The notes under the pieces: model-generated
Told to the model about the DNA's origin: nothing
Database searches by the model: none
Seen by the model: only the letters and a program-made list of their open reading frames with translations
Shown here: positions 39,734 through 51,598 of the stretch, piece after piece
Layout: each line of letters starts with the position of its first letter
How positions within the stretch are numbered: position 1 is the stretch's first letter
Virus record (IMG/VR): IMGVR_UViG_2974779332_000001
Coordinates: 32,001-96,000 of that record
Length of the DNA: 64,000 nt
Source: a virus
Taxonomy: Duplodnaviria > Caudoviricetes
Strand: one strand, 5' to 3'
Made by a program: the position numbers and the translations under genes

Positions 39734-39744
39734 GCTGCTAAAGT
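39716..39744 (+). promoter_or_regulatory. sigma70-type promoter driving Y RNA-like 1 and tRNAs
   Basis: TTGACA-17 bp-TAAAGT; predicted +1 at about 39751 coincides with the ncRNA 5' end. Confidence 0.7.
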
Positions 39745-39750
39745 AGTAAA

Positions 39751-39834
39751 TGTGGGTCGAACGAAGGTTGGTTATCTTTCAAATGGTGAATACGCTCCGA
39801 TAGGGGCTCTCCGACTTTCAAACACTTATCCACA
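39751..39834 (+). ncRNA. Y RNA-like 1 (minimal Ro60-binding stem, no T arm)
   Basis: TGTGGGT/ATCCACA terminal helix, CGAAC internal loop, GAAGGTTGG/CCGACTTTC helix, GGTTATCT motif shared with two other copies. Confidence 0.75.
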
Positions 39835-39838
39835 AAAT

Positions 39839-39909
39839 GCATCGGTAGTTTAATGGTAGAACGAGAGACTTCCAATCTTTCGGCGCGGGTTCGATTCCCG
39901 CTCGGTGCT
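39839..39909 (+). tRNA. tRNA-Gly(UCC)
   Basis: Cloverleaf, anticodon loop CTTCCAA, GGTTCGATTCC. Confidence 0.92.
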
Positions 39910-39914
39910 CTCTA

Positions 39915-39985
39915 TCCCGTATTGTGTAATGGTAGCACAAAGGTCTCTGAAGCCTTTAGTCTTAGTTCGAATCTAGGTGCGGGAG
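39915..39985 (+). tRNA. tRNA-Gln(CUG)
   Basis: TCCCGTA/TGCGGGA acceptor, loop CTCTGAA. Confidence 0.92.
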
Positions 39986-39987
39986 CT

Positions 39988-40152
39988 GGTCCGACTTTAC
40001 GATATCGGCGGAAATAACTGAATCGGAACTCACATAATAACCATGGTAAAAGTGAGGAATGAGGAAGGGAAATATGCGGGAAGCGATGGGTAAAACCTCC
40101 TCGGACCGACAACGGGGTTTCTGGATGCTCTTTCCCAAGAATAAGATGCACC
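39988..40152 (+). ncRNA. putative structured ncRNA (unknown family)
   Basis: Spacer with no credible ORF; GGTCCGA/TCGGACC closing stem, CTCAC/GTGAG, GAGG/CCTC, GGGAAA/TTTCCC. Confidence 0.4.
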
Positions 40153-40154
40153 AT

Positions 40155-40225
40155 ATGTCCTTCGTATAATGGTAGTACAAGAGATTCCAAACCTCTTAGC
40201 GTGGGTTCGATTCCTACAGGACATG
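40155..40225 (+). tRNA. tRNA-Trp(CCA)
   Basis: ATGTCCT/AGGACAT acceptor, loop TTCCAAA. Confidence 0.9.
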
Positions 40226-40232
40226 CTTTGAT

Positions 40233-40410
40233 GAGTCTCGCCTTAGCAGGCATGAACGATAGTGTTCAGCATAAACTATCAAGTAAGCCCAAGAGACAAA
40301 CTGAAAGGGGTAACCCATGCTGAGGGTTCCTGATTAAGGAGTAGGGGATAAGGTCCCAAACAGTGTCAAAACCATTTAAAAAACGCCCGGTATCGAAAAG
40401 GTACCGGGCA
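40233..40410 (+). ncRNA. putative double-pseudoknot ncRNA (unknown family)
   Basis: GTCTC/GAGAC crossed by CCTTAGCA/TGCTGAGG; nested TGAAC/GTTCA + GATAGT/ACTATC pseudoknot; 3' GCCCGGTATC/GGTACCGGGC hairpin. Confidence 0.55.
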
Positions 40411-40430
40411 CAATAATATCCGGAGGAAAT

Positions 40431-40874
40431 ATGGGATACTACACAGACTTCACTCTAAGAGCGGAAGGCCGTGGAGCTGTCTATGACAAGATGATGAGAG
40501 ACAGGTCCAAGATTACATTCTCCTATAGCAACTACGACTTTACCCTCGGAGACTGGCTTGACAGAGACTACTCTGAGAACCTAAAGTGGTATGAATGGGA
40601 GAAGGACATGAAGCAGCTCTCAAAGGAGTGGCCAAACGTCCTATTTATTCTTGATGGAGATGGCGAAGAGACTGGTGACCTCTGGAGAGCATGGTTTCGA
40701 AATGGTGCCATGTACAAGCTTGAGGCAAAGATTGTTTTCGAGACAATCAAGCCAGATTTGGACAAGCATCTTCCATATGACCATGACCTTGACAAGCGTC
40801 TCGGTGAGCAGTACAAGGAAGAACTCAAAGACGAGATTGCCAGATTGCAGAAGCAGCTTGACTCACTAGACTGA
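40431..40874 (+). CDS. hypothetical phage protein
   Basis: 147 aa, GGAGG RBS; MGYYTDF...KWY.W..DM...S..WP...F.L.G.GEE motif seen in phage proteins. Confidence 0.75.
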   Translation: MGYYTDFTLRAEGRGAVYDKMMRDRSKITFSYSNYDFTLGDWLDRDYSENLKWYEWEKDMKQLSKEWPNVLFILDGDGEETGDLWRAWFRNGAMYKLEAKIVFETIKPDLDKHLPYDHDLDKRLGEQYKEELKDEIARLQKQLDSLD

Positions 40875-40885
40875 GAGGTGTAGGG

Positions 40886-41037
40886 TGGCTCTTACAGGCA
40901 CAAACGGACAGTGTTGGTTCCAAAGATGTTCTCGCAAGGCGACAACGACAATTCGGTATTACAACAAGTCAGTTGTCGTCTGTAATGGACACAAGAACCT
41001 TGATGGTGTAGGCTGTCCTTCAAGTAGGCGGAGACCA
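40886..41037 (+). ncRNA. putative long-hairpin/pseudoknot ncRNA (unknown family)
   Basis: Nested GGACAG/CTGTCC, GGTTC/GAACC, TGTTC/GGACA, GACAAC/GTTGTC; crossing TTACAGGC/GTCTGTAA. Confidence 0.55.
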
Positions 41038-41042
41038 AAGAG

Positions 41043-41071
41043 TTGACACTACTCAGAGGGTCTGCTAAGAT
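41043..41071 (+). promoter_or_regulatory. sigma70-type promoter
   Basis: TTGACA-17 bp-TAAGAT upstream of tRNA-Pro. Confidence 0.7.
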
Positions 41072-41099
41072 TAAGTACAACGGCAGGGAAACCTGCTAT

Positions 41100-41171
41100 C
41101 AGGCTCGGGGAAGATGGTAATCCGTTGGCTTTGGAAGCCTAAGACACTCGGTTCGATTCCGAGGGGCCTGA
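41100..41171 (+). tRNA. tRNA-Pro(UGG)
   Basis: CAGGCTC/GGGCCTG acceptor, loop TTTGGAA. Confidence 0.85.
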
Positions 41172-41202
41172 CCGAACATAGGAGGCATCCTATGCGTCTT
41201 GC

Positions 41203-41270
41203 GGCGGTGAATGTAGGAACCACAGGTTATGCAGCCAAGGTGGTCAAGGTTCGACTCCTTGCATCGAGCG
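41203..41270 (+). ncRNA. degenerate tRNA-like element (T arm present, no canonical anticodon arm)
   Basis: CAAGG-TTCGACT-CCTTG T arm; CGGTG/CATCG partial acceptor; ACCAC/GTGGT helix. Confidence 0.45.
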
Positions 41271-41302
41271 TACTGGGGCTGATACGATAACTCAGCATTT
41301 AA

Positions 41303-41377
41303 CGGGATATAGCTCAGCTTGGTCAGAGCGCGCGGTTTGGGACCGTGAAGTCGTCAGTTCGAATCTGACTATCCCGA
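41303..41377 (+). tRNA. tRNA-Pro(UGG)
   Basis: Canonical CGGGATA/TATCCCG, loop TTTGGGA. Confidence 0.95.
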
Positions 41378-41380
41378 CAA

Positions 41381-41529
41381 TTTGGGTCGAAAGAGATACG
41401 GTTATCTAACAATGGATAATAGGTTCGATTCCTATCGGTGGGTATAGCCCGCTGTGTAAGGCCATCCGAGATGCGTGTGGTAGGATGGCATTGGAACTAC
41501 ACGCTCTCCGTTCTCATCACTTATCCAAA
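41381..41529 (+). ncRNA. Y RNA-like 2 (YrlA-type: Ro stem, T arm, closed acceptor-like hairpin, pseudoknot)
   Basis: TTTGGGT/ATCCAAA, CGAAA, GAGA(T)ACGG/CCGTTCTC; ATAGG-TTCGATT-CCTAT; CGGTGGG/CCCGCTG hairpin; GCCATCC/GGATGGC with loop GCGTGTGGT pairing ACTACACGC. Confidence 0.8.
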
Positions 41530-41539
41530 GGATTTAATC

Positions 41540-42061
41540 ATGACGGTACTTCTAAGAACCATTCATGGTTCACACCTTTACGGTCTCGCTCATGCAGGGT
41601 CTGATAAAGACATCTACGAAGTCATTGCGACTAAGCGTACGAAGCGTAAGCGAAACATCAAGCAGACCATTGCAAATGGTGTTGACAAGACTACAGTTGA
41701 CCTGTCAACATTCATGCATATGGTTGACGAATGCGTACCTCAAGCACTTGAAGCGCTATGGACGCCGGTTGCAGAAATTGATGAAATCAATTCCTTCCGG
41801 ACACAATATCGAGTGAATCGCGCCAAGATGAAGGAAGTATACATTCGAACCGCTCTAAACTTCGCCAAGCATGATGATGTAAAGCGTAAGCGTCACGCTA
41901 TCCGTTTGCTTCTCAATCTTGGAGCAGCTTTGGAATACGGTAAGTTCAATCCCAGACTATCCAATATGGACAAGTTCATTCTCCGCTCATCACTCGGAGA
42001 AACGGGAGCTTATGAGGATGTCTTTCTAGGCGTTCTCGATGAAGTGCAAAAGTGGGTCTGA
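41540..42061 (+). CDS. Pol-beta superfamily nucleotidyltransferase (RlaP/YcgL-like)
   Basis: GSHLYGL...SDKD (GS + DxD) N-terminal motif; K...H..RL helix. Confidence 0.8.
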   Translation: MTVLLRTIHGSHLYGLAHAGSDKDIYEVIATKRTKRKRNIKQTIANGVDKTTVDLSTFMHMVDECVPQALEALWTPVAEIDEINSFRTQYRVNRAKMKEVYIRTALNFAKHDDVKRKRHAIRLLLNLGAALEYGKFNPRLSNMDKFILRSSLGETGAYEDVFLGVLDEVQKWV

Positions 42062-42074
42062 CGGCTCACGCCAA

Positions 42075-42151
42075 TGGGGCGTATACCCTCACTCTGATAA
42101 AGTGTAGAAAGGTTAATCGGTTACATGTGGGTTCAATTCCCACCGTCCCAA
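42075..42151 (+). tRNA. atypical D-armless tRNA-Ile(GAU)
   Basis: TGGGGCG/CGTCCCA acceptor, CACT-CTGATAA-AGTG, T arm GTGGG-TTCAATT-CCCAC; no D stem; D-loop-like TAATCGG lies 3' of the anticodon arm. Confidence 0.65.
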
Positions 42152-42191
42152 CTGGCTCTCTGTGGAGAGCATTCCTAGAAACAACAATAAT

Positions 42192-44009
42192 ATGGTAGAT
42201 TTCGACAAGAGACATTCCAAAGAGATTGTGAAACGCCCTGACTCAGACCTGGAACCCTCCAGGTCTTTTCGGTCTTCCGAGCAGGGTGTATTTTTGCATG
42301 TCAAAAAGGGAATGAAGATAACCACTAAGGCCATTCTGGATTGGGTCTACCTGAATGACTATAAAGAGGAGATTGCTAAGGCTAGAACAGAAGGCAATCT
42401 CGAAAAGGCCCGGAAGTTGAAGATAGAGCAAGAGAAGCGTAGTGAACCAAGACGTAAGAGGTTCTACTCTACCCTTGCTGTACTAATTGCACTTATTGGT
42501 TGGGCCTATGTTACATGGGCCATTGTTCCAATTGTTGTGGTGTTGGTTGTGAGCCTCCTTGCCATGTGGTTTGTAGGTAGCGGCGTCAAGCCTCAGCAGC
42601 TCGTATCAGCAATTACCGGAAAGGAGGAAGAGGAGCTAGACCCAATGGAGCCTTTTCCAATTTCCGATGCACGCAACAGAGACGAGGCTCAGGAATGCTT
42701 GAGGAGAGCCCTTCTTGCTGAGGGAATCACTCCCAGGGTTATCTTGGAACCAACTCGTTACAATTGGGGTTGGGAAATCCCGGTAGTTCTGAGAAAGGGA
42801 ACTCCTGATGATGTAATGTCTAAGGCTAAGAAGATGGAGACACTACTAAGACTTCCTACTGATGGAATGCTAGTAGCTGCTACTCGATTCCGGGCCGAAG
42901 TAATTATTCGTCTCATGCAGACCGACCCATTTGCCGACATGAGAAACGAACCAAGGGCTGAACCACTCTCACGTTCAATCAAGAAGAAGTACAAGATTGC
43001 ACAGAGAATGGATGGTCAGTCCCTTGAAATCAGCTTGCTGAGAAATCACGCAGTTGTTATTGCAGCGCCTGGTGGTGGAAAGTCTATGTTCATGCGTAAG
43101 CTAGCAGACATCACCACTAGCTGTAGAGATTGTGTAACCTGGGACATTGACCCTGGTGGCAATGGACTCGAAGTCTTCGGAAGTGCTATCGCAAGGCGTG
43201 GTAGGACAGAAGAGGAAATTGAAGAAATGCTAACCGAGGCTCTAGAGTACACCAAGATTCGTGCAAAGAAGCTGACGAAGCTTCGCATGGGTGACAACTG
43301 GCAGCCAAGCAAGGAACATCCTGCTCTTATCATCTTCATTGATGAGTTTATTCAGCTAAACAAGAAGTGCAAGGAACTGGCCATTGACATTATCCGCAAT
43401 GGACGTAAGTCTGCTATTACTGTTGTGCTAGCTGCGCAGCAGGCTACAAAGGACCAACTTGGTGCCGCCATTGCAGATGCAGTGTCTATCAAGGTTATGT
43501 TTGCTTCTCGTCACGCTGACGTACCTCTAGTATTCGGAGAGGGTATGTTGTCCCAGGGCTGGAGACCTGATAAGCTACATCCAGCATCAGGTGAGGACGT
43601 GGAAGACGCTGGTAAGTGTTACATTTTGGGCGGTGGCTCAAGGGAACCTTATCTATACAAGGTAACTCCAATAGAACCTGATGAGGCTATCGAGATGGGT
43701 GATGAGCGTGAAGCAGAGGGCATGCCCGAACTTGACAGTGATACCTACCTAGATGTTACAGTTACAGACACAACAGACAAGCGCCTCTTGGAGGACGTGC
43801 TTGACATCTTTGAGAACTTTGACGAGAATGACTGGCTTCCTGCCAGCATCTTGGTCAAGGAACTTAAGGGCTACGGTCACACCTTGACAGCTCGTCAGTT
43901 GCATGAGACTCTAGGAGATACCGGTCGAGAGAGCCGTATTTGGGAAGGGTCCAAGTACAAGGTGGCTGGTTACTTCCGAAAGAACATCGAAAAGCAATTG
44001 GAGAAGTAA
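42192..44009 (+). CDS. FtsK/TraB-like DNA translocase
   Basis: N-terminal TM pair, Walker A APGGGKS, Walker B IFIDE, GRK...AAQ, probable C-terminal wHTH. Confidence 0.85.
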   Translation: MVDFDKRHSKEIVKRPDSDLEPSRSFRSSEQGVFLHVKKGMKITTKAILDWVYLNDYKEEIAKARTEGNLEKARKLKIEQEKRSEPRRKRFYSTLAVLIALIGWAYVTWAIVPIVVVLVVSLLAMWFVGSGVKPQQLVSAITGKEEEELDPMEPFPISDARNRDEAQECLRRALLAEGITPRVILEPTRYNWGWEIPVVLRKGTPDDVMSKAKKMETLLRLPTDGMLVAATRFRAEVIIRLMQTDPFADMRNEPRAEPLSRSIKKKYKIAQRMDGQSLEISLLRNHAVVIAAPGGGKSMFMRKLADITTSCRDCVTWDIDPGGNGLEVFGSAIARRGRTEEEIEEMLTEALEYTKIRAKKLTKLRMGDNWQPSKEHPALIIFIDEFIQLNKKCKELAIDIIRNGRKSAITVVLAAQQATKDQLGAAIADAVSIKVMFASRHADVPLVFGEGMLSQGWRPDKLHPASGEDVEDAGKCYILGGGSREPYLYKVTPIEPDEAIEMGDEREAEGMPELDSDTYLDVTVTDTTDKRLLEDVLDIFENFDENDWLPASILVKELKGYGHTLTARQLHETLGDTGRESRIWEGSKYKVAGYFRKNIEKQLEK

Positions 44010-44012
44010 AAC

Positions 44013-44228
44013 ATGTGGACAGCAGGTGTAATTTTCTACCTGGTTGTCTGTGCATATCTCTGTAAGAAGAAGGGCTGGCAGATTCATTATCTCGCCTGGG
44101 GTGCCGTTGGTGGGCTTCTTCTAGCCACCATCGTTCCTACCCTCCCTGCACAGACAAAGACTACTATGGAAAACACTGCTCAGGTAGTCGTTTCCATCTT
44201 TAACAGCACGGGCATCGGGCAGGGTTGA
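44013..44228 (+). CDS. small membrane protein
   Basis: 71 aa, two hydrophobic segments, directly after the FtsK-like gene. Confidence 0.65.
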   Translation: MWTAGVIFYLVVCAYLCKKKGWQIHYLAWGAVGGLLLATIVPTLPAQTKTTMENTAQVVVSIFNSTGIGQG

Positions 44229-44253
44229 CAGTAGCCCTGCTACGATGTAGCAT
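44225..44253 (+). promoter_or_regulatory. sigma70-type promoter
   Basis: TTGACA-17 bp-TAGCAT. Confidence 0.65.
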
Positions 44254-44286
44254 AGATTTAAACCTAGCCCTTGTGGGGCTAGACGA

Positions 44287-44359
44287 GCGCCAGTAGCATA
44301 ACGGTCGATGCAGCAGGCTTATATCCTGACGATAGAAGGTTCAATTCCTTCCTGGCGTA
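44287..44359 (+). tRNA. tRNA-Ile(UAU)
   Basis: GCGCCAG/CTGGCGT acceptor, CAGG-CTTATAT-CCTG. Confidence 0.85.
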
Positions 44360-44390
44360 CGCTATATCACTACAATTAGATGGAGCTAAA

Positions 44391-44555
44391 GTGGCTCTTT
44401 CCCATCCTGACGGTACTAAAATCGTCATTACCAGGGGCCAGTACAGGAACAAGCAAGGCACAGTTACCGTCGTCGGTAAGATTAAGCTGGTTGTTCTTGA
44501 CGATGGCACTGAGCTTATGGCTGTTTCTGACGAAATGGCTCGGAAAGTACAGTGA
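44391..44555 (+). CDS. small KOW/SH3-like protein (not in ORF track)
   Basis: GTG after GGAG; GTKIVITRGQYRNKQGTV KOW-like motif. Confidence 0.6.
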   Translation: MALSHPDGTKIVITRGQYRNKQGTVTVVGKIKLVVLDDGTELMAVSDEMARKVQ

Positions 44556-44556
44556 C

Positions 44557-44730
44557 ATGGAAAGCAAGAAGTATCTCTCAGTAGGAGACATTGTATTTGT
44601 TCTCCAGACTCGTGCGGAGGTTTACGACCTCGTAGATACAAATACTTCACTTCTAAAGGTACGTTTCCTTGAGGGACCGGCCCAAGGTGAAGTAAGTCTA
44701 GTAGTTCTTAAGCAGGTTGAGCGCGACTGA
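44557..44730 (+). CDS. small SH3-like protein
   Basis: LSVGDIV...AEV...KVRF pattern. Confidence 0.55.
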   Translation: MESKKYLSVGDIVFVLQTRAEVYDLVDTNTSLLKVRFLEGPAQGEVSLVVLKQVERD

Positions 44731-44739
44731 GCGCTCTTT

Positions 44740-44826
44740 GGAGAGTAAGCGATTGGCTAGCGGGCATCCTGGAAAGGTGCTAAGAGGTATCCCCTCGGCT
44801 GGGTTCGATTCCCAGGCTTTCCTCCA
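44740..44826 (+). tRNA. tRNA-Ser(GGA)
   Basis: Long variable arm, loop CTGGAAA, encoded CCA. Confidence 0.88.
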
Positions 44827-44872
44827 ACTGTTCAATTTTGCATTAGGAATTGAACAGAGATATAATTCTGTC

Positions 44873-45292
44873 ATGAATACATTTAAGACAGATATTATTC
44901 GCCTTCGTGATGAGGGCAAAACGTACGCAGAAATTGTCAGTGAACTTGGATGTTCTAAGGGTACTGTTGCTTACTATTGCGGTGCAGACCAAAAGGCGAA
45001 AATGCTCTCGCGTCAAAGAGACAGAAGGAACAGAGTTCGTAAGTTTCTTCAAGAGCACAAGCAAGCCTCTGGCTGTGTCGATTGTAAGGAAATGTATCCT
45101 TACTGGATTCTTGAGCTTGACCATTGTCGCGGAGAAGCTAAGGTAGGAAATGTATCAGAGATGATAGGTAGCCATAGCTTTGAAGAGATTATGAAAGAGG
45201 TCGAGAAGTGTGATGTTGTTTGTGCTAATTGCCACAGGCAGCGCACATGGGAACGTATGGTTAAATCCAGTGGAGAGGTTATCCTAGACTAG
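44873..45292 (+). CDS. HTH-HNH endonuclease (homing-type)
   Basis: N-terminal HTH, CVDC, ELDH, CANCH..RT; inserted between two tRNA-Ser genes. Confidence 0.85.
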   Translation: MNTFKTDIIRLRDEGKTYAEIVSELGCSKGTVAYYCGADQKAKMLSRQRDRRNRVRKFLQEHKQASGCVDCKEMYPYWILELDHCRGEAKVGNVSEMIGSHSFEEIMKEVEKCDVVCANCHRQRTWERMVKSSGEVILD

Positions 45293-45308
45293 ACGCAGGA
45301 GGTGCAGA

Positions 45309-45527
45309 ATGATAATCTGTGGTGACACAGTTAAAGTAAAGCACGACCGTCCTAATGTGGACCCCGCCTATTATGGAAAGCGTGGTAGGATTCATAAGAG
45401 GACTCGTATTCTTGGCGCTCTAGGTGCTGGGCAATACGAAATTATGTTCTTCGAAAGAGAACTCAATCACCCAATCGTGGGTGTTATGGGTGGCTTCAAC
45501 GAAGATGACCTGGAAGTCGAACGCTGA
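45309..45527 (+). CDS. small KOW/SH3-like protein
   Basis: GGAGG RBS; GDTVKV...YYGKRGRI. Confidence 0.6.
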   Translation: MIICGDTVKVKHDRPNVDPAYYGKRGRIHKRTRILGALGAGQYEIMFFERELNHPIVGVMGGFNEDDLEVER

Positions 45528-45536
45528 CTTCCCTAT

Positions 45537-45627
45537 GGAAGGTTAAGCCGAGTGAGGACTAACGGCAGCAGTCTTGAAAACTGTTTAGGTGTAAAAGCCT
45601 GTGTGGGTTCGAGCCCCACACCTTCCG
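45537..45627 (+). tRNA. tRNA-Ser(UGA)
   Basis: GGAAGGT/ACCTTCC, loop CTTGAAA, long variable arm. Confidence 0.92.
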
Positions 45628-45628
45628 C

Positions 45629-45838
45629 ATGAGCCTAATTAAAAAGTATAAAGTAGGTGATAGGGTCGTTCTTACTGACGGAGAAGGTGTTGGTAATGTT
45701 GGCGACCTTGGTACAGTCTCACAGGTGAATTGGATTGCCAAGAAGCGATTTTGGTGGTACGGGGTAACTCTCGATAATCCGCCAAAGGGCAAGGCATCCA
45801 GTTACATGTTCAGGGACTATATGATTCGAAAGGCATAA
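45629..45838 (+). CDS. small SH3-like protein
   Basis: KYKVGDRVV...GDLGTV...YGV.LD. Confidence 0.65.
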   Translation: MSLIKKYKVGDRVVLTDGEGVGNVGDLGTVSQVNWIAKKRFWWYGVTLDNPPKGKASSYMFRDYMIRKA

Positions 45839-45839
45839 G

Positions 45840-46028
45840 GTGCCCAAGAACAAGGAAGAACTACAACGACAGCTAAACGCTTTCAAGCAGGAGCTTAAGG
45901 ATTATGAGGCTAAGCTTGAAAGGGCGAAGCAGACCAATAACAGAGACGACGTGGTGAATTATGCCATGACTGTTGCTGGTCTAAAGAACTCCATAAAGGA
46001 AATCGGCACTCAGTTGAGGTCAATGTGA
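45840..46028 (+). CDS. small coiled-coil protein
   Basis: 62 aa, helical hairpin. Confidence 0.6.
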   Translation: MPKNKEELQRQLNAFKQELKDYEAKLERAKQTNNRDDVVNYAMTVAGLKNSIKEIGTQLRSM

Positions 46029-46417
46029 GTGCAGTCCTTATAGGAGTTCTTCTTCATTTTGTGGGTGACTATCTAATCCAGACGGATTGGATGGCACAAC
46101 TTAAGACAAAAAGGTGGGCACCTGCCATTGTCCATGGTGTCACATACGGTGTCCCCTTCATATTTGTCACAATGTCACCAATAGCATTGGCTGTCATCAT
46201 TGTCACTCACATTGTCATTGACCATTACAGATTGGCCCGGCATGTAGTATGGGCCAAGAATCAGCTAGCTCCAAAGGAATGGCGGTATCCTTGGAGCGAA
46301 GGCAACCTAACAGGCTATAGAAATGATGCACCTGTATGGCTTACCACCTGGCTGATGATTATCGCTGACAATACAATTCACATTGCTATCAACACTTTAG
46401 CCATCCTCTTTCTCTGA
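46025..46417 (+). CDS. membrane protein, DUF3307-like
   Basis: H..GDY..Q..WMA..K, H...Y, H..ID, D.T.H motifs. Confidence 0.75.
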   Translation: MSAVLIGVLLHFVGDYLIQTDWMAQLKTKRWAPAIVHGVTYGVPFIFVTMSPIALAVIIVTHIVIDHYRLARHVVWAKNQLAPKEWRYPWSEGNLTGYRNDAPVWLTTWLMIIADNTIHIAINTLAILFL

Positions 46418-46454
46418 GGATGGCTTTTAGTGTTTTTGGTGATAAAATAAATGC

Positions 46455-48410
46455 ATGGCTAATTCAACACCTTTGCTCGGAGCCGGTAATGTAACGACTG
46501 CCAGCAATTCAAATGCGACATCAATCACCGTTAACAAGCCAGCTAATCTGGCTGACGGTCATTATATGTTTGCGGCTATCCTTCAAAGGAATGCGGCTGG
46601 TACGTGGACGGTTCCTTCTGGTTGGACTGCCGTAGGGGTAACACAGCAAGACTATGTAGACTGTAAGGTCTACTACAAATACGTACCAAGCGCGGCAGCG
46701 GAGAGCGCCACAAACTACACCTGGACGACCAATAAGACGGCCGAGAGAATTGTAGCAATAGTCTGGCTACAGACGAACACTGATGGCGTTTCTCCAATTG
46801 ATGCGCTGGGCACTGGAGTAGCTACAGCACCCAACAGAACAAGCATGAACTTCACCTCTGTTACTGCTGTCAGCTCACATGCCACCTTGATTGCTGTAGG
46901 ATATAGCACAATTGCTGGAGGAGCATCAGCACCAATTGGTTCTACGCCAACTGGTATGACGGAGATTACTAACGTCAATATTGCTAATGCCACTCCTAAT
47001 GCATTGGACTTGAAGGTATCTTATCAGATACTTTCTGTTGCTGGCGCAACAGGCACAAGGACTACCAACTTCTCACCGGCCGCTTCTGGTTCTGGTGGAT
47101 TCACATTCACTATCAATCCTGTCGGTGACGCACCTCCAACGACTGTTGCCATGAGACAAGGACTTTGTGACAAGGACAAAATCCGTGTCCTCGCGAGGAC
47201 AAGTTCCACGTCATCTGTCCGTCTTGCTGTGTCACTGTCCAGTGACATGTCATCTCCTGTGTACTCATCATCAGTGACACCAGACAGTGACGGATATTCC
47301 AAGCTGACTGTCACTGGATTGTCCAGTGACACGAAGTATTGGTATTGTCTTGAGCTTAATGGTGTCCTCAACACGAGTGTCACTGGAGTTTCAAGAACCT
47401 TCCCAGTGAATGGTTCATTCAGCTTCCTTGCAGCCTCATGTTCATTCACAGCATCCAATCATGCAGTCTTTGATGGGATGAGAACCAGAACTGGACCTGA
47501 TAGCTTGCCAGCAAGATTCTTTGCTCATCTTGGTGATGTGCACTATGAGCATGCTAGCTACAGCTCCAATCCAATCGCTCCAAATGACCCTGTAGAGCAC
47601 CGTACGAATTACGAGAATAGTCTGATGACCGCCAGACAGCAGGCGCTTTGGAGAGATATTCCTGTGAGCCATACGTACTCAGATAACGACTTCTGCGGAA
47701 GCAATTCTGACTCAACGTATGCCGCTCGTCCTGCCATTATCAGTGTGCGTCATCAGATTATGATTGACCCGCCTCTGCCTGACTCTGGAGGAAATGGTCT
47801 TTGGAGAACGTGGGTAGTTGGCCGAGTACGTTTTATACAAACCGACAGCCGTACCTACATGTCTGCAAAGGGGTCTACAGACAACAGCTCTAAGACTATG
47901 CTTGGAGCGGAACAGAAAGCTTGGCTCAAGACACAACTTCTACAGCCAGAGCTTCTTAAGGTATGGTTCCATGACCAAGCATGGGGAGGAGTAGCAACAA
48001 ACCCCGGCAACAATGATACTTGGCAAGCATTCAATACTGAAAGAGTAGAGATAGGAAACTTCATCTCTTCTAATCAAGTGAAGGTTGTGTATATTCATGG
48101 AGACAGCCACAGGCTGTCTGCCGATGATGGAGTATTGAATACAAGAGGAGGCTTTCCAACTATCTCTTGTGCTCCTATGGACCAATCAGCACAAGGAGGA
48201 GATTCAACAGGTGAAGCTAATTCAGCAGGAGTTTATCCAGCTTATGGTGTTACTCAGCAAGGAAATCATTATGGTTGGTTTGATGTAGACGATGATGGTT
48301 ACCAGCTCTCCTTGATATTCAAGGGATATGACTCAACAGGAACACAAAGGGTAACAATGACAGTTACAGTCAGTCCTACTGTAGCTACTGGTTGGGGTTA
48401 TCCTCTCTGA
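46455..48410 (+). CDS. phoD: PhoD-like alkaline phosphatase/phosphodiesterase with N-terminal beta-rich domain
   Basis: F.F.AASC, HLGD.HY, DND, TD.R, MLG.EQK.WL, W..F..ER, GDSH; Fn3-like middle region. Confidence 0.8.
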   Translation: MANSTPLLGAGNVTTASNSNATSITVNKPANLADGHYMFAAILQRNAAGTWTVPSGWTAVGVTQQDYVDCKVYYKYVPSAAAESATNYTWTTNKTAERIVAIVWLQTNTDGVSPIDALGTGVATAPNRTSMNFTSVTAVSSHATLIAVGYSTIAGGASAPIGSTPTGMTEITNVNIANATPNALDLKVSYQILSVAGATGTRTTNFSPAASGSGGFTFTINPVGDAPPTTVAMRQGLCDKDKIRVLARTSSTSSVRLAVSLSSDMSSPVYSSSVTPDSDGYSKLTVTGLSSDTKYWYCLELNGVLNTSVTGVSRTFPVNGSFSFLAASCSFTASNHAVFDGMRTRTGPDSLPARFFAHLGDVHYEHASYSSNPIAPNDPVEHRTNYENSLMTARQQALWRDIPVSHTYSDNDFCGSNSDSTYAARPAIISVRHQIMIDPPLPDSGGNGLWRTWVVGRVRFIQTDSRTYMSAKGSTDNSSKTMLGAEQKAWLKTQLLQPELLKVWFHDQAWGGVATNPGNNDTWQAFNTERVEIGNFISSNQVKVVYIHGDSHRLSADDGVLNTRGGFPTISCAPMDQSAQGGDSTGEANSAGVYPAYGVTQQGNHYGWFDVDDDGYQLSLIFKGYDSTGTQRVTMTVTVSPTVATGWGYPL

Positions 48411-48411
48411 G

Positions 48412-48441
48412 TTGACAGCCTCCTTGAGACCATGCTAGTGT
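48412..48441 (+). promoter_or_regulatory. sigma70-type promoter
   Basis: TTGACA-18 bp-TAGTGT. Confidence 0.55.
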
Positions 48442-48517
48442 GTAGTTACACTAGAAAATATAAAGAAAAAGATAGTTAAAAGAATCCAGAAACGGATTAG
48501 AATAGGATAGTAATTAA

Positions 48518-48805
48518 ATGAGACTCTTTGAACTTCATAGAGACGTTGATTCATCTGGCGTCTCTGGAACAGGAGTCGTTGCGCAGGGTGTCGAGTTTGA
48601 CAACCGGCAGTGTTGTATGACATGGTTGACCGAATGGAACTCAGTGGCTGTCTATCCTGACATCACTACCCTTGAAGCCATCCATGGACACAACGGCAAC
48701 ACTCGTGTAGTATGGGTTGAAGGCCCGGCAACCGAAAGATATGTCGAAGTAGCTGGTAAGAAGGTTCCTGTCCACACAGTTGACAGGTTCTCCGAGAACC
48801 GCTAG
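48518..48805 (+). CDS. conserved actinophage hypothetical protein
   Basis: F.L.R..D.SGVSGTG.VA.GV.F...HGH.G.T motif. Confidence 0.75.
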   Translation: MRLFELHRDVDSSGVSGTGVVAQGVEFDNRQCCMTWLTEWNSVAVYPDITTLEAIHGHNGNTRVVWVEGPATERYVEVAGKKVPVHTVDRFSENR

Positions 48806-48808
48806 AGT
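48780..48808 (+). promoter_or_regulatory. promoter of the tRNA-Asp / Y RNA-like 3 / Ro60 unit
   Basis: TTGACA-17 bp-TAGAGT. Confidence 0.7.
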
Positions 48809-48886
48809 AGAACGTAGAGCAGGTCGGCAAGCAGGTAAGTGAGGAACACAGGAGCTTGAACCACAACCCCTCCGCCTAGCTCTCTT

Positions 48887-48962
48887 GCGTCTGTAGTATA
48901 GTCTGGTCTAATGCACCTGATTGTCAATCAGGAAATCGCGGGTTCGAATCCCGTCAGGCGCG
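48887..48962 (+). tRNA. tRNA-Asp(GUC)
   Basis: GCGTCTG/CAGGCGC, loop TTGTCAA. Confidence 0.92.
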
Positions 48963-48967
48963 CACAT

Positions 48968-49040
48968 CCCGGCGTGGTGAACTGGTTTATCACACTTGTC
49001 TGTCGAACAAGAGTAGAGGGTTCAATTCCCTTCGTCGGGG
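48968..49040 (+). tRNA. tRNA-Asp(GUC)
   Basis: CCCGGCG/CGTCGGG, loop CTGTCGA. Confidence 0.9.
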
Positions 49041-49043
49041 CTT

Positions 49044-49155
49044 TGTGGGTCGAAAGAGTAATCGGTTATCTTCCCTTTGAAATGAGAAAATGGTAGGTTC
49101 GAATCCTACGTAGGCCAAGGAGCGGCCAACTCCGATTCTCACCAATATATCCACA
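49044..49155 (+). ncRNA. Y RNA-like 3 (Ro stem, T arm, short hairpin)
   Basis: TGTGGGT/ATCCACA, CGAAA, GAG(T)AATCGG/CCGATTCTC, GGTTATCT, GTAGG-TTCGAAT-CCTAC, GGCC/GGCC; 770 bp upstream of Ro60. Confidence 0.82.
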
Positions 49156-49160
49156 CCAGT

Positions 49161-49484
49161 ATGAACACTGATGAGAAGATTGCACGAATTAAGGAACTCT
49201 GGAAAGAGTACACTTATCCTGATGACACAATCCACACACTACAAGACGAGACTCCCGAAGGGGAGTTCAAGCCTGTCTGGGTGGAAACCGTCGAGGAAGG
49301 TGAGTCTCGCTGGATGATTCATACCCTTGAGGTATTTGAAATCGAAGAAGGTGTATACGTAGGTGTACGCTGGGAGCGAGGCAAGACAGAGATGCAAGAG
49401 AATCTATTCGAAGATAACAACGTCTATCGCGTAGACAAGGAGATTGTTCAGCGCGTAGACTGGAGCGCAAAGGAAGCTCTGTGA
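49161..49484 (+). CDS. hypothetical acidic protein
   Basis: 107-aa ORF; SRW......VF....G.Y....W..G.TE.QE motif. Confidence 0.65.
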   Translation: MNTDEKIARIKELWKEYTYPDDTIHTLQDETPEGEFKPVWVETVEEGESRWMIHTLEVFEIEEGVYVGVRWERGKTEMQENLFEDNNVYRVDKEIVQRVDWSAKEAL

Positions 49485-49894
49485 AGAATTGGCTCGGGCA
49501 CGATATTGTTGTTGGAGCAATTGTTTTTCGTGGTGGACGACAGGGCGACAGTTCATCCTTCCGGGTAGGCATTGTGGATGATTTTGATACGTCCAAGGCA
49601 CGCCCGGCAAGGGTTGACTGGAGGTTCGATGCAGGAACCAGACGAATTTGGTTTGGTGAGACTGCATGGGAGAGGCATCCAGATGACTATTCAGTTATGG
49701 GTCCTCACAAGTCAAGTACACAACGAACACGATACGAAATTAACGATTTGGTACGGCTGGATAATGACCAGCTTGAATACCTAGAACAGCGTGATAAGCT
49801 GTGTACACTTGCCCAACACTACAAGATTCGCAAGGAAGACTTCACTGCATTCGAGCAGGACTTTCTTGCAGGAAATGTCCCTGACATCAATTAA
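49481..49894 (+). CDS. hypothetical protein (SH3-like N-terminus)
   Basis: 137-aa ORF coupled to the previous gene. Confidence 0.6.
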   Translation: MKNWLGHDIVVGAIVFRGGRQGDSSSFRVGIVDDFDTSKARPARVDWRFDAGTRRIWFGETAWERHPDDYSVMGPHKSSTQRTRYEINDLVRLDNDQLEYLEQRDKLCTLAQHYKIRKEDFTAFEQDFLAGNVPDIN

Positions 49895-49923
49895 TATGCC
49901 CAAAAGGGCCGGAAGGAAAAGTA

Positions 49924-51570
49924 ATGTCAAACGCACTTAACAACGCTGCCAAGAGTCTGAACAAGACTCCTCAGTCTCAGAAGGCTAAGGCAAGTCAGGT
50001 CAAGAACAACGCTGGTGGATTCGTCTTCCAGGTTTCTGACCAGGCTCGTCTAGAGCGATTCTTGATTCTGGGTGTCGATGGCGGTACGTATTACGTCAGT
50101 GAGGTCAATCATGCTATGAGCAATGTTGGCTTCCTCAACGAGATGATTGAGCGAGACGAAGCCTCTGTTCTGCGCACCATTGTAGACGTGTCTACAAGTG
50201 GTCGTGCGTACAAGCAGTCTCCTGCCCTGTATGCTCTAGCCTCTGTTATTGCCAACGGCAAGGACAAGCAGGCAGTTAAGGCAGTATTCAATCGTGTCGT
50301 TCGTACAGGTACCCACTTGTACGAGGTCATGAACTACCTCACCTCTCTCAAGATTGGTTGGGGTCGTTCAAAGCGAGAGATTGTTGCTTCTTGGTTCGAC
50401 AAGGATGCTGACAAGCTGGCTTACCAGGCGGTCAAGTACCGTTCTCGTAAGTTTGGAGAGCAGACCTGGACGCTCCGAGACGTAATGCGTCTTTCACACC
50501 CACGAGATGTGAACACATCTGTTGTGGACTTTGTTCTTGGCAAGTCTCATGATTCTATCGATGACCTTCGGGTTATCGAGGGATTCAAGAAGATGCAGAG
50601 GGCTCAGTCTGTTGACGATGTTCACGCTGTTCTTCGTGAGTACGAGATGCTTTCATGGGAGACAATCCCAACTCAGTTCCTCAAGGATGTGAGTGTATGG
50701 AAGCGAATCTTTGCTAACGGACAACTTCGTGGCCAGGCTCTGGTTCGAAACATCACTCGCCTAGCGCGAATTGGTGCTTTCCAGGACATGCGCTTTGCTG
50801 CTGCTTATGCAGGACAGCTAACGAATCAGGAAATGATTGTACAGACTCGTCTGCACCCAATTAACTTCCTGAACGCTACTGTCGTGTATAACGAAGGCCA
50901 GATGAAGACCGTAAAGGACCGATATGGCTGGGACCGCGAGCAGCGAGTAAAGGACTGGACAACTGAGAGTGTTATCGTGGATGCCCTCAACGAGGGATTC
51001 CACAAGGCATTCAAGGCTGTTGAGCCTGCTGGAAAGCGAACGATGCTAGCCATCGACGTTTCAGGTTCTATGAGTGCAAAGGCTAACGGTCTCGACCTTA
51101 GCTGTGCTCAGGTTTCTGGCGCAATGGCAATGACCATCGCTCGTACCGAGCCTGCTCACATCATCCGTGGATTCACGTGTGATGGTTACAGCTACAGGAA
51201 CAGTGGTCTTACCAACCTAGGCATTTCTGCAAACACCGACCTTGCTACGGTAATGCGTAAGGTGCAGCGAAGTAACTTTGGTGGCACAGACTGTGCGCTT
51301 CCTATGGTTTGGGCCAAGGACAACAAGGTTGAGGTTGACACCTTTGTGGTTATCACTGATAACGAGACATGGGCTGGCAACATTCATCCTTTCCAGGCCC
51401 TCAAGGACTACAGGAAGGCTACGGGCATTGACGCTCGTTTGGCTGTTCTTGGTGTTGCGGCAACGCCGTTTACCATTGCAGACCCAAGCGACTCAGGCAT
51501 GATGGATTTCGTTGGCTTTGATAGCAACGCACCTCGTGCGCTCGCAGATTTCTCTGCTGGTCGTATCTGA
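49924..51570 (+). CDS. rsr: Ro60 / TROVE-vWA RNA-binding protein
   Basis: NNAGGF.F, RLERFLILG..GGTYY, YQAVKYR.R, D.MRLSHP, RLHP, DVSGSM, GGTDCALP, ITDNETWAG, GFD. Confidence 0.95.
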   Translation: MSNALNNAAKSLNKTPQSQKAKASQVKNNAGGFVFQVSDQARLERFLILGVDGGTYYVSEVNHAMSNVGFLNEMIERDEASVLRTIVDVSTSGRAYKQSPALYALASVIANGKDKQAVKAVFNRVVRTGTHLYEVMNYLTSLKIGWGRSKREIVASWFDKDADKLAYQAVKYRSRKFGEQTWTLRDVMRLSHPRDVNTSVVDFVLGKSHDSIDDLRVIEGFKKMQRAQSVDDVHAVLREYEMLSWETIPTQFLKDVSVWKRIFANGQLRGQALVRNITRLARIGAFQDMRFAAAYAGQLTNQEMIVQTRLHPINFLNATVVYNEGQMKTVKDRYGWDREQRVKDWTTESVIVDALNEGFHKAFKAVEPAGKRTMLAIDVSGSMSAKANGLDLSCAQVSGAMAMTIARTEPAHIIRGFTCDGYSYRNSGLTNLGISANTDLATVMRKVQRSNFGGTDCALPMVWAKDNKVEVDTFVVITDNETWAGNIHPFQALKDYRKATGIDARLAVLGVAATPFTIADPSDSGMMDFVGFDSNAPRALADFSAGRI

Positions 51571-51574
51571 GATT

Positions 51575-51598
51575 GCCCCTCTTCGGAGGGGCTTTCTT
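51575..51598 (+). terminator. intrinsic terminator after Ro60
   Basis: GCCCCTC-TTCG-GAGGGGC-TTTCTT. Confidence 0.8.

What the first reader, a model, noticed from the sequence alone, without database searches (positions are those of the whole stretch)
39751..51570. Phage Ro60 with three dispersed Y RNA-like genes: same Ro-binding handle, different cargo domains
Seen: three loci (39751-39834, 41381-41529, 49044-49155) share 5' GGGTCGAA(A/C)GA...GGTTATCT and 3' TCCG...TTC...ATCCA. Both helices flanking the CGAA loop keep pairing through substitutions: GAAGGTTGG/CCGACTTTC, GAGA(T)ACGG/CCGTTCTC and GAG(T)AATCGG/CCGATTCTC. Interiors differ. Copy 1 has one small hairpin and starts at a predicted +1. 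Copy 2 has a T arm, a closed acceptor-like hairpin and a pseudoknot where the D arm would be. Copy 3 has a T arm plus a short hairpin, ends ...A-CCA, and shares a promoter-to-terminator unit (48780-51598) with Ro60. Known: bacterial Y RNAs (YrlA) carry a GNCGAA motif in the Ro60-binding stem, mimic tRNA and can tether Ro60 to effectors such as PNPase; some phages encode Ro60 plus a Y RNA. Inference: this is a modular phage Ro60 RNP system in which interchangeable Y RNAs redirect Ro60 to different partners or act as decoys.
Basis: partly seen in the sequence, partly recalled or inferred. Interest (0 to 1): 0.9.

Follow-up and report, generated by a model that had tools for sequence, protein, structure and literature searches.

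The report
Three phage Y RNA genes beside tRNAs
A large Streptomyces phage that encodes the RNA-binding ring protein Ro60 also carries three unannotated small-RNA genes with the Ro60-binding signature of bacterial Y RNAs; this adds new members to a known kind of system.

Summary
The three loci (39751-39834, 41381-41529, 49044-49155, all + strand) share a lower stem, a CGAA bulge, an upper stem and an invariant GGUUAUC. Their interiors differ.

A covariance model built from 19 short relatives finds exactly these three sites in the whole 133-kb phage genome. Both stems covary: 97-98% of cells pair, against 31-49% in slid controls.

The same handle tracks Ro60 elsewhere:
- In IMG/VR, 14 of 18 model-positive stretches hold Ro60, against 1 of 100 model-negative ones.
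- In 45 of 80 bacterial Ro60 loci, 52 of 54 hits lie 30-469 nt upstream of Ro60 on its strand.

The motif matches the published GNCGAAN0-1G of YrlA/YrlB. It also matches the CGAA bulge shown to bind a phage Ro60 (papers).

These are therefore very probably Ro60-binding Y RNAs, and GenBank relatives do not annotate them. Each abuts a tRNA by 2-4 nt, which suggests release by tRNA-processing enzymes.

The idea that the different interiors recruit different partners is the field's standard model and is untested here. The "A-CCA" end of copy 3 is not conserved. No expression data were found.

Verdict: new members of a known kind, of moderate interest.

The parts
39716..39744 (+). Promoter-like site (TTGACA, 17 nt, TAAAGT, with TG before the -10 hexamer). 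It ends 6 nt before copy 1.
   Evidence: The same hexamers and spacing are present in 15 of 15 sources, including the distant L030.
39751..39834 (+). Y RNA-like copy 1 (class A, 84 nt). It has the handle plus one small inner hairpin and no T arm, so it is YrlB-like.
   Evidence: 77.7 bits. The inner hairpin and both stems covary in 12 relatives. No Rfam family matches it at E<=10.
39839..39910 (+). tRNA-Gly(UCC), starting 4 nt after copy 1. Cleavage by RNase P at its 5' end would set the 3' end of copy 1 (inference).
   Evidence: Spacing of 2-5 nt in 13 of 14 class A elements listed (530 nt in L020).
41043..41071 (+). Promoter-like site upstream of the unit tRNA-Pro, tRNA-Pro, copy 2.
   Evidence: a consensus match only.
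41303..41378 (+). tRNA-Pro(UGG), ending 2 nt before copy 2.
41381..41529 (+). Y RNA-like copy 2 (class B, 149 nt). After the handle come a 4-bp hairpin that uses the UAUC, a T arm (41419-41435), a closed hairpin, and a long hairpin whose loop (41483-41489) can pair with 41461-41467 as a pseudoknot. There is no D arm.
   Evidence: 44 pairs, 97.2% of cells paired, pseudoknot paired in 9 of 9 sequences with 1 compensatory pair. One search scores it at 38.9 bits. Homologues are in 81 GenBank Streptomyces phage records, with no feature under the match in the 12 rows listed.
41540..42061 (+). RlaP-like nucleotidyltransferase gene, starting 11 nt after copy 2. It is context, not shown to be a partner.
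   Evidence: Pfam PF10127 RlaP, E 1.6e-5, 25.2 bits against a cut-off of 23. phrog_388 nucleotidyltransferase, E 5.8e-21.
48780..48808 (+). Promoter-like site of the unit tRNA-Asp, tRNA-Asp, copy 3, two small ORFs, Ro60.
48968..49041 (+). Second tRNA-Asp(GUC), ending 2 nt before copy 3. The first tRNA-Asp is at 48887-48963.
49044..49155 (+). Y RNA-like copy 3 (class C, 112 nt). It has the handle, a T arm (49093-49109) and a short hairpin, and lies 769 nt upstream of Ro60.
   Evidence: 58.1 bits, E 4e-11, and not in the training set. Three of the 5 T-stem pairs show changes on both sides in 11 relatives. Homologues are in 48 GenBank records, with no annotated feature under the match in the 12 rows listed (one of them a record with no annotation at all).
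49161..49894 (+). Two small ORFs (107 and 137 aa) between copy 3 and Ro60. Their function is unknown.
   Evidence: No Pfam match. phrog_13073 and phrog_2596, both of unknown function.
49924..51570 (+). Ro60 (TROVE plus vWA), 548 aa.
   Evidence: Pfam TROVE 1.8e-32 and vWA_Ro60 1.6e-59. PDB 2NVO at 4.5e-98, 1YVP at 4e-79, 9NEN at 1e-78.
51575..51592 (+). Terminator-like hairpin (7 pairs, 6 of them G-C) followed by a T-rich tail, directly after Ro60.

Best explanation
The three loci are genes for Ro60-binding Y RNAs of the actinobacterial YrlA/YrlB type.

Anatomy (shown from sequence):
- Each RNA closes its 5' and 3' ends into a lower stem.
- The lower stem is followed by an unpaired CGAA(N), an upper stem and an invariant UUAUC.
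- Together these form the site that the phage's own Ro60 ring binds (inferred from relatives, not tested here).
- The variable interior is the effector end. Copy 1 has one hairpin. Copy 2 has a T arm, a closed hairpin and a pseudoknotted hairpin. Copy 3 has a T arm and a hairpin.

Biogenesis (inferred):
- The genes sit inside tRNA transcription units.
- Copy 1 starts at a conserved promoter's +1 and ends 4 nt before tRNA-Gly.
- Copies 2 and 3 start 2 nt after a tRNA.
- The tRNA-processing nucleases, RNase P and a 3' tRNA endonuclease, probably cut them out of the precursors.

Function (by analogy only): the Ro60-Y RNA particles engage host RNA-decay or tRNA-handling proteins during infection, such as PNPase as shown for Thermus phage phiLo. 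They would do so within a phage module that also holds about 44 tRNAs, a tmRNA, an RlaP-like nucleotidyltransferase and, in relatives, an RNA ligase and a polynucleotide kinase.
For: Motif. All three copies carry G-N-CGAA-N-G near the 5' end. This is the motif Chen 2014 defined for YrlA/YrlB (passages read). In phiLo Yrl2, each CGAA nucleotide contributes 3-4 fold to Ro60 affinity (passages read).

Structure.
- In 19 short elements, 12 pairs in 2 helices are 97.8% paired, against 31-46% when slid. Seven pairs change on both sides, and 0 of 500 shuffles reach the observed score.
- In 75 model hits from 29 sources, 97.1% of cells pair and 10 of 12 pairs change on both sides. That alignment is fitted to the model.

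Specificity. There are only 3 hits in the window with filters off, and only 3 in the whole genome.

Association with Ro60, which was not used to find the elements.
- Of 118 IMG/VR stretches that match a 15-base pattern, 18 have a model hit.
- 14 of those 18 hold Ro60, at 32-86% identity. Only 1 of the other 100 does. Fisher p = 8e-14.
- The 4 exceptions are either cut at the edge of the stretch or are class A sites about 10 kb from Ro60.
- In 80 bacterial Ro60 loci, 45 have hits. Of the 54 hits, 52 lie on Ro60's strand, 30-469 nt upstream.

Link to published YrlA.
- Mycobacteriophage ET08, used in Chen 2014's alignment, has the same handle on three elements upstream of Ro60.
- Class E, a fourth paralogue in relatives that bears the same handle, matches Rfam YrlA over its full length at 33.1 bits, E 6e-6. 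The ET08 YrlA itself scores 37.4 bits.

Conservation as separate paralogue classes in relatives, with covarying interiors.

Biogenesis.
- The spacers to same-strand tRNAs are 4, 2 and 2 nt in the window.
- 36 of 75 hits lie within 25 nt of a same-strand tRNA. 52 of 75 lie within 25 nt of a tRNA or another element.
- The promoter before class A is conserved in 15 of 15 sources.
Against: - There is no evidence of transcription, of RNA ends or of Ro60 binding for these RNAs.
- Rfam's YrlA model (RF02553, gathering score 69) matches none of the three copies, even at E<=10 on short stretches. The published ET08 YrlA also fails that cut-off, so this test is weak.
- No Rfam family at all matches copy 1.
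- Copies 1 and 2 lie 10.1 and 8.4 kb from Ro60. This is outside the 4-kb criterion of Chen 2014.
- Fold z-scores are modest.
- The model and the IMG/VR pattern both contain the motifs, so the measured invariance of CGAA and UUAUC among hits is partly ascertainment.
- In some relatives class B reads CGAUU instead of CGAA. Either the motif tolerates change or those copies bind less well.
Confidence: 0.85

Rival explanations
1. The elements stay in cis. They are structured leaders or spacers within the tRNA and Ro60 transcripts. Copy 3 could be an autoregulatory Ro60-binding site in the 5' untranslated part of the Ro60 operon, and copy 2 a leader of the nucleotidyltransferase gene. On this view they are not free Y RNAs.
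For: Copy 3 lies between a promoter-like site and Ro60 with no terminator in between. Copy 2 ends 11 nt before the ATG of the RlaP-like gene. No RNA data exist to show separate molecules (searches were uninformative).
Against: Copy 1 is followed by tRNAs, not by a coding gene. In relatives and in distant contigs the elements stand head to tail with tRNAs and with each other at spacers of 1-20 nt, like separately processed RNAs. In M. smegmatis, YrlA and YrlB are processed from one precursor upstream of Rsr and are bound by Rsr as free RNAs (Chen 2014, passages read).
Confidence: 0.08
2. They are tRNA-derived relics or tRNA-like decoys that act without Ro60. They might soak up host tRNA-cleaving defence nucleases or tRNA-modifying enzymes. 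The shared ends would be a processing signal and not a Ro60 site.
For: Copies 2 and 3 have canonical T arms. All copies sit in tRNA arrays. A dimeric-tRNA origin of YrlA has been proposed (Wang et al. preprint, passages read).
Against: Copy 1 and the 68-nt class D have no tRNA-like part, yet they keep the whole handle. The handle is found beside Ro60 in bacterial loci: 52 of 54 hits are within 469 nt upstream of Ro60. The CGAA bulge is a demonstrated Ro60 contact in another phage.
Confidence: 0.05
3. The similarity is chance, or a repeated sequence with no RNA function.
For: The short GNCGAANG motif alone is common. One-mismatch matches to the 11-mer occur at control level.
Against: There are three full-length model hits and no others in 133 kb. 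Compensatory changes occur in both stems and in the interior helices across relatives. The classes are positionally conserved in 43-81 GenBank records each.
Confidence: 0.02

Closest known systems
YrlA/YrlB of Mycobacterium smegmatis and of mycobacteriophages such as ET08 (Chen et al. 2014, RNA 20:1715; passages read)
   Same: - The GNCGAAN0-1G motif sits near the 5' end, and the 5' and 3' ends pair.
- There is more than one Y RNA per genome, one with tRNA-like parts and one without a full tRNA domain.
- They are encoded upstream of Ro60 on the same strand.
- ET08 shows the same CGGUUA(U/C)C after the upper stem.
- The phage-trained model hits 45 of 80 actinobacterial-type Ro60 loci just upstream of Ro60.
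   Different: - Copies 1 and 2 lie 8-10 kb from Ro60 and are scattered through tRNA arrays.
- None of the window's three copies has the full T arm, acceptor-like stem and D arm domain. Copy 2 has a pseudoknotted hairpin where the D arm would be.
- None matches Rfam RF02553.
- These are Streptomyces phages. I could not see Chen's Supplemental Table S2, which lists their 22 phages.
Thermus phage phiLo Ro60 with Yrl1 and Yrl2 (Nucleic Acids Res 2025, gkaf470; abstract and passages read)
   Same: A phage-encoded Ro60 with several phage-encoded Y RNA-like genes upstream. The anatomy is stem, CGAA bulge, stem. This system provides the experimental precedent for binding and for a ternary complex with host PNPase.
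   Different: - phiLo has two RNAs, both next to the gene.
- 'tRNA' occurs only twice in its main text, and none of the passages shown describes a tRNA-like module or a tRNA neighbour.
- The phiLo Ro60 is too distant to appear in my PDB sequence search (3 hits only).
- Nothing here is tested at the bench.
Deinococcus radiodurans Yrn1/Yrn2 and the Ro60-Y RNA-PNPase machine (RYPER), as described in Chen 2014 and Kowalski and Krude 2015 (passages read)
   Same: The Y RNA acts as a tether between the Ro60 ring and an effector, and as a gate. There are two or more Y RNAs per genome. The window's Ro60 is closest in sequence to D. radiodurans Rsr among solved structures.
   Different: Yrn1 keeps both strands of the metazoan-type helix and orders its tRNA-like parts differently (Chen 2014). 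No PNPase-binding module can be recognised here.
Vertebrate Y RNAs and nematode stem-bulge RNAs (Kowalski et al. 2015 J Cell Sci; Kowalski and Krude 2015 review; passages read)
   Same: Lower stem, bulge and upper stem, then a conserved UUAUC at the 5' end of the variable loop domain. This is the same place where the phage and bacterial elements have UUAUC or UUACC.
   Different: No Rfam Y RNA or stem-bulge RNA model matches. The review states that bacterial Y RNAs are not homologous to the vertebrate clades. In animals UUAUC is tied to DNA replication activity, not to Ro60 binding.

Membership tests
YrlA/YrlB-type bacterial Y RNA (Chen 2014 definition) | GNCGAAN0-1G motif near the 5' end | tested here: met
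   All three copies read G-U-CGAA-(A/C)-G at positions 6-13 of the element. The motif definition comes from passages of Chen 2014.
YrlA/YrlB-type bacterial Y RNA (Chen 2014 definition) | The 5' and 3' ends pair into a stem that holds the motif (stem, bulge, stem) | tested here: met
   Folds. Covariation gives 97.8% of cells paired and 7 of 12 pairs changed on both sides, against 31-46% paired when slid. The same holds on 75 hits.
YrlA/YrlB-type bacterial Y RNA (Chen 2014 definition) | Encoded within about 4 kb of Ro60 on the same strand | tested here: inconclusive
   Copy 3 meets it (769 nt upstream, same strand). Copies 1 and 2 are on the same strand but 10.1 and 8.4 kb upstream.
YrlA proper (tRNA-like Y RNA; Rfam RF02553) | tRNA-like domain with a T arm, a closed acceptor-like stem and a D arm | tested here: not met
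   Copy 2 has a T arm and a closed hairpin but no D arm. Copy 3 has a T arm only. Copy 1 has none. Class E of relatives, which the window lacks, does have all three.
YrlA proper (tRNA-like Y RNA; Rfam RF02553) | Score at or above the Rfam gathering cut-off (69 bits) | tested here: not met
   The three copies give no match even at E<=10. In the control, the published ET08 YrlA reaches only 37.4 bits and class E reaches 33.1 bits, so the cut-off also excludes accepted actinophage members.
Y RNA in the functional sense (an RNA bound by Ro60) | An intact Ro60 gene in the same genome | tested here: met
Y RNA in the functional sense (an RNA bound by Ro60) | A discrete stable transcript physically bound by Ro60 | not testable with these tools
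   No RNA run on record holds the stretch. The contigs that were laid cannot show RNA ends.
Metazoan Y RNA / stem-bulge RNA (Rfam models) | A match to the curated covariance models | tested here: not met
   No such family appears at E<=10 on 9.9 kb or on the short stretches around copies 1 and 2. Only the shared UUAUC position is seen.

The most novel reading that the evidence does not exclude
Large actinophages carry a panel of 3 to 6 Y RNAs that tRNA-processing enzymes cut out of tRNA precursors. Each would steer the single phage Ro60 ring to a different host or phage factor, such as PNPase, tRNA-elbow-binding enzymes, the adjacent RlaP-like nucleotidyltransferase or the RNA repair enzymes. 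The purpose would be to guard the phage's own tRNA pool against host RNA-targeting defences. In addition, the UUAUC at the entry to the variable domain, shared by phage, bacterial, nematode and vertebrate Y-type RNAs, would be an ancient part of the Ro60/Y RNA signature and not a coincidence.
Probability: 0.2. Interest if true: 0.75.

Novelty: new member of a known kind. Interest (0 to 1): 0.5.

Why it matters
Ro60 is conserved from bacteria to humans, where it is an autoantigen. What its Y RNA partners do in bacteria and phages is still largely open.

- About 110 sequenced Streptomyces phages annotate the protein but not the RNAs.
- Marking 3-4 Y RNA genes per genome, with a model that also finds them beside Ro60 in other phages and in actinobacteria, gives a ready set of natural handle-plus-module variants for binding and pull-down work.
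- The tight tRNA abutment suggests a simple, testable route of biogenesis.
- The finding also shows that Rfam's YrlA model misses this large branch of the family.

Tried and rejected
- **Rfam.** The only YrlA row in the window (23.1 bits, 39850-39962) lies on tRNAs. One search found none at the gathering score in 12 related loci.
- **My first regular-expression scan.** It suggested that class B is absent where class E is present. This was wrong. BLAST and an alignment show class B there with CGAUU in place of CGAA. I dropped the idea that the two classes exclude each other.
- **My closure heuristic.** It mis-closed several long elements, so I used class alignments and the covariance model instead.
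- **The CCA end of copy 3.** Rejected as a conserved feature.
- **Expression.** No RNA holder was listed. Four runs guessed to be RNA, kept as contigs, were laid on the stretch. They cover coding and non-coding parts alike at low depth and cannot show ends or strand. They are no evidence either way.
- **Papers.** Two reviews were not held: the 2020 Annu Rev Microbiol review and the 2019 Crit Rev Biochem Mol Biol review. Supplements were not opened. Chen 2014 Supplemental Tables S1 and S2 may already list some of these phages.
- **Prior description of Y RNAs in Streptomyces phages.** One search used the terms 'Streptomyces phage', 'Ro-like' and 'tRNA'. In the one paper that held all three, Y RNA is not mentioned. 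Searches found nothing on Streptomyces phages. This is not proof that none exists.
- **Not attempted.** Whether Streptomyces hosts encode Ro60. No structure prediction or complex prediction was run, because they would not bear on RNA binding.

Full report
**What the window is.** The window is bases 32001-96000 of a 133,090-bp phage genome with terminal repeats. Its nearest GenBank relatives are Streptomyces phages such as Evy, Warpy, Paradiddles and Jay2Jay. They are about 83% identical over 72-79% of the 13-kb region: 111 records match, 109 of them Streptomyces phages. The window holds 29 tRNA genes, all on the + strand. ORF 49924-51570 is a full-length Ro60. It has the Pfam TROVE domain (1.8e-32) and the Ro60 vWA domain (1.6e-59). 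It aligns end to end with D. radiodurans Rsr (2NVO, 4.5e-98) and with Xenopus and human Ro60.

**The observation.** Each folds into a terminal stem of 6-7 pairs, an unpaired CGAA(A/C), a second stem of 8-9 pairs (with one bulged base in copies 2 and 3), and then GGUUAUC at the start of an interior that differs between copies. The fold z-scores are modest (-2.5, -2.0, -1.3), so the case rests on comparison with relatives. The exact 11-mer occurs three times in the genome, only at these sites. One-mismatch matches are at control level.

**Relatives and paralogue classes.** A search with the neighbouring FtsK-like protein gave 14 IMG/VR loci (59-93% protein identity), each spanning all the sites. 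The elements are conserved there as positional classes:
- Class A is copy 1. It is present in 15 of 15 sources.
- Class B is copy 2. It is seen in 14 of the 15 sources; L018 was not checked directly, but its GenBank twin EGole has it. In L017, L020, L021 and L029 it reads CGAUU in place of CGAA.
- Class C is copy 3. It is present in 14 of 15 sources; the distant locus L030 had no class C hit.
- Class D is a 68-nt minimal copy directly after class C, in six loci.
- Class E is a 145-nt copy after the FtsK-like gene, in four loci.

The window's phage therefore has three copies and many relatives have four. In GenBank phages, homologues of A, B, C and E are found in 43, 81, 48 and 49 records. In the 12 rows listed for each class, no annotated feature lies under the match, with two qualifications: one Microbacterium phage row has a hypothetical protein there, and one class C row is a record with no annotation at all. 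In phage Evy the three sites are unannotated gaps.

**Covariation.** I aligned 19 short elements (classes A and D plus four distant ones) and tested a structure of 7 + 5 pairs.
- 97.8% of cells pair, against 31-46% when the partner is slid.
- Seven of the 12 pairs change on both sides.
- 0 of 500 shuffles reach the observed pairing or covariation score.
- On 75 hits from 29 sources, 97.1% of cells pair and 10 of 12 pairs change on both sides. That alignment is fitted to the model.

The interiors are also structured:
- The class C T stem changes on both sides in 3 of 5 pairs, with an invariant T loop.
- The class A inner hairpin covaries.
- Class B has 44 pairs at 97.2% paired. The proposed 7-bp pseudoknot is paired in 9 of 9 sequences, with one compensatory pair and one G-U/G-C pair. 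That is consistent with the pseudoknot but is thin support.

**Specificity.** The covariance model R1, run with filters off on both strands of the window, reports only the three loci at E<=5. The whole genome gives the same three. Copy 3 was not in the training set and scores 58.1 bits.

**Association with Ro60.**
- A 15-base pattern scan of IMG/VR returned 118 stretches, most of them expected by chance.
- R1 hits 18 of them.
- 14 of those 18 hold a Ro60 gene, at 32-86% identity to the window's. Only 1 of the other 100 does, and that one has a marginal hit in a smaller search. Fisher p = 8e-14.
- The four exceptions are elements at the cut edge of a stretch, or class A sites whose Ro60 would lie about 10 kb away.
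- A scan of one genome per prokaryotic species with a Ro60 alignment kept 80 loci, mostly Actinomycetota.
- R1 hits 45 of these 80 loci. Of the 54 hits, 52 are on Ro60's strand, 30-469 nt upstream of it.
- The handle is therefore the general Ro60-linked RNA signature of this part of the bacterial and phage world.

**Comparison with the literature.**
- Chen et al. 2014 defined GNCGAAN0-1G near the 5' end of YrlA/YrlB and reported candidates in 254 bacteria and 22 phages. They found at least two Y RNAs in each species they studied, one of them tRNA-like, and suggested that the others widen the range of partners.
- Mycobacteriophage ET08 has the same handle on three elements upstream of Ro60.
- For Thermus phage phiLo, a 2025 paper shows Ro60 binding to two phage Y RNA-like RNAs through a stem, CGAA bulge, stem. 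Each CGAA base matters, and a ternary complex forms with host PNPase.
- Rfam's YrlA model does not recognise the window's copies. It also gives the published ET08 YrlA only 37.4 bits against a cut-off of 69. It matches class E of the relatives full length at 33.1 bits.
- So I file the three RNAs as Y RNAs of the YrlA/YrlB kind by their handle, and not as YrlA proper. None has the full T arm, acceptor-like stem and D arm domain.

**Biogenesis (inferred).**
- A promoter-like site ends 6 nt before copy 1. Its hexamers and spacing are kept in 15 of 15 sources.
- Copy 1 ends 4 nt before tRNA-Gly. Copies 2 and 3 begin 2 nt after tRNA-Pro and tRNA-Asp.
- Across 75 hits, 36 lie within 25 nt of a same-strand tRNA, and 52 lie within 25 nt of a tRNA or another element.
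- The simplest reading is co-transcription with the tRNAs and release by RNase P and the 3' tRNA endonuclease.
- This fits the proposal that YrlA arose from dimeric tRNA transcripts (Wang et al. preprint, passages read).

**Function (by analogy).** The RNAs most likely bind the phage Ro60 through the handle and present different interiors to other proteins. The neighbourhood is an RNA-maintenance module. It holds tRNA arrays and an RlaP-like nucleotidyltransferase 11 nt after copy 2. In phage Evy it also holds a tmRNA, an RNA ligase and a polynucleotide kinase. Which partners are engaged, and whether any copy acts as a decoy, cannot be read from the sequence.

**A point worth a test.** UUAUC follows the upper stem in all three copies.
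- Among 42 hits from distant contigs the five positions are kept in 42, 42, 41, 37 and 39 cases.
- Among the 54 bacterial hits the motif is UUA(U/C)C.
- Both sets were found with a model that contains the motif, so this invariance is partly ascertainment.
- Papers on nematode stem-bulge RNAs and vertebrate Y RNAs describe a conserved UUAUC at the 5' end of the loop domain, which is the same place.
- The Wang preprint notes a conserved UA there in YrlA.
- No Rfam animal model matches. This is therefore a lead and not a homology claim.

**Verdict.** The Y RNA reading is well supported by motif, covariation, specificity and Ro60 association. The functional inference is plausible but untested, and it is already the standard model. 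These are new, unannotated members of a known kind.

Noticed in passing
L043:796-1360 (-), L099:452-1132, L110:709-1880, L086:140-830 (-), L145:1995-2574, L150 (Streptomyces phage Beuffert):9412-10789: Other Ro60-encoding phage contigs, with Ro60 33-55% identical (L086 without a Ro60 hit in the stretch fetched), hold arrays of 4 to 6 handle-bearing elements. The elements are often 5-20 nt apart and interleaved with tRNAs, next to Ro60. The weakest members of these arrays have E-values of 0.01-0.1.
   Followed up: partly
window 39773-39777, 41402-41406, 49067-49071 (the UUAUC after the upper stem): UUAUC at the entry to the variable domain is nearly invariant in phage hits and is UUA(U/C)C in bacterial hits. 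Papers place a conserved UUAUC at the same position in nematode stem-bulge RNAs and vertebrate Y RNAs. It is not consistently base-paired across the classes.
   Followed up: partly
L017:12179-12323 and the same site in L018, L021, L029: Relatives have a fourth paralogue (class E) with a full T arm, closed stem and D arm. It matches Rfam YrlA at 33.1 bits. The window's phage lacks it: the tRNA-Ile at 44287-44360 is followed by an ORF instead.
   Followed up: yes
L017:9100-9200, L021 and L029 (between tRNA-Pro and class B): In these relatives an extra stretch of about 100 nt, with a hairpin that looks like a T arm, sits between the tRNA and class B. Class B there reads CGAUU instead of CGAA.
   Followed up: no
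L020:8724-8857: The class B copy of this relative has lost the T arm but keeps the handle and the long hairpin.
   Followed up: no
window 42075-42151 (+): A weak tRNA-like match (30.8 bits against a cut-off of 29) lies between the nucleotidyltransferase and FtsK-like genes. ARAGORN does not call it.
   Followed up: no
window 39131-39733 (+): A 200-aa ORF just upstream of copy 1's promoter has weak, sub-threshold von Willebrand A domain matches. It belongs to phrog_7371, of unknown function.
   Followed up: no
window 40230-40430: A non-coding stretch of about 200 nt lies after tRNA-Trp. It has a G+C-rich hairpin near 40386-40410 and only weak sub-threshold Rfam rows.
   Followed up: no
L212:1404-1529 (-) and L209:1002-1117 (-) (Promicromonospora): These are the only two bacterial model hits that are not just upstream of Ro60. 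Both lie about 1.5-2 kb upstream on the opposite strand and carry the full handle.
   Followed up: no
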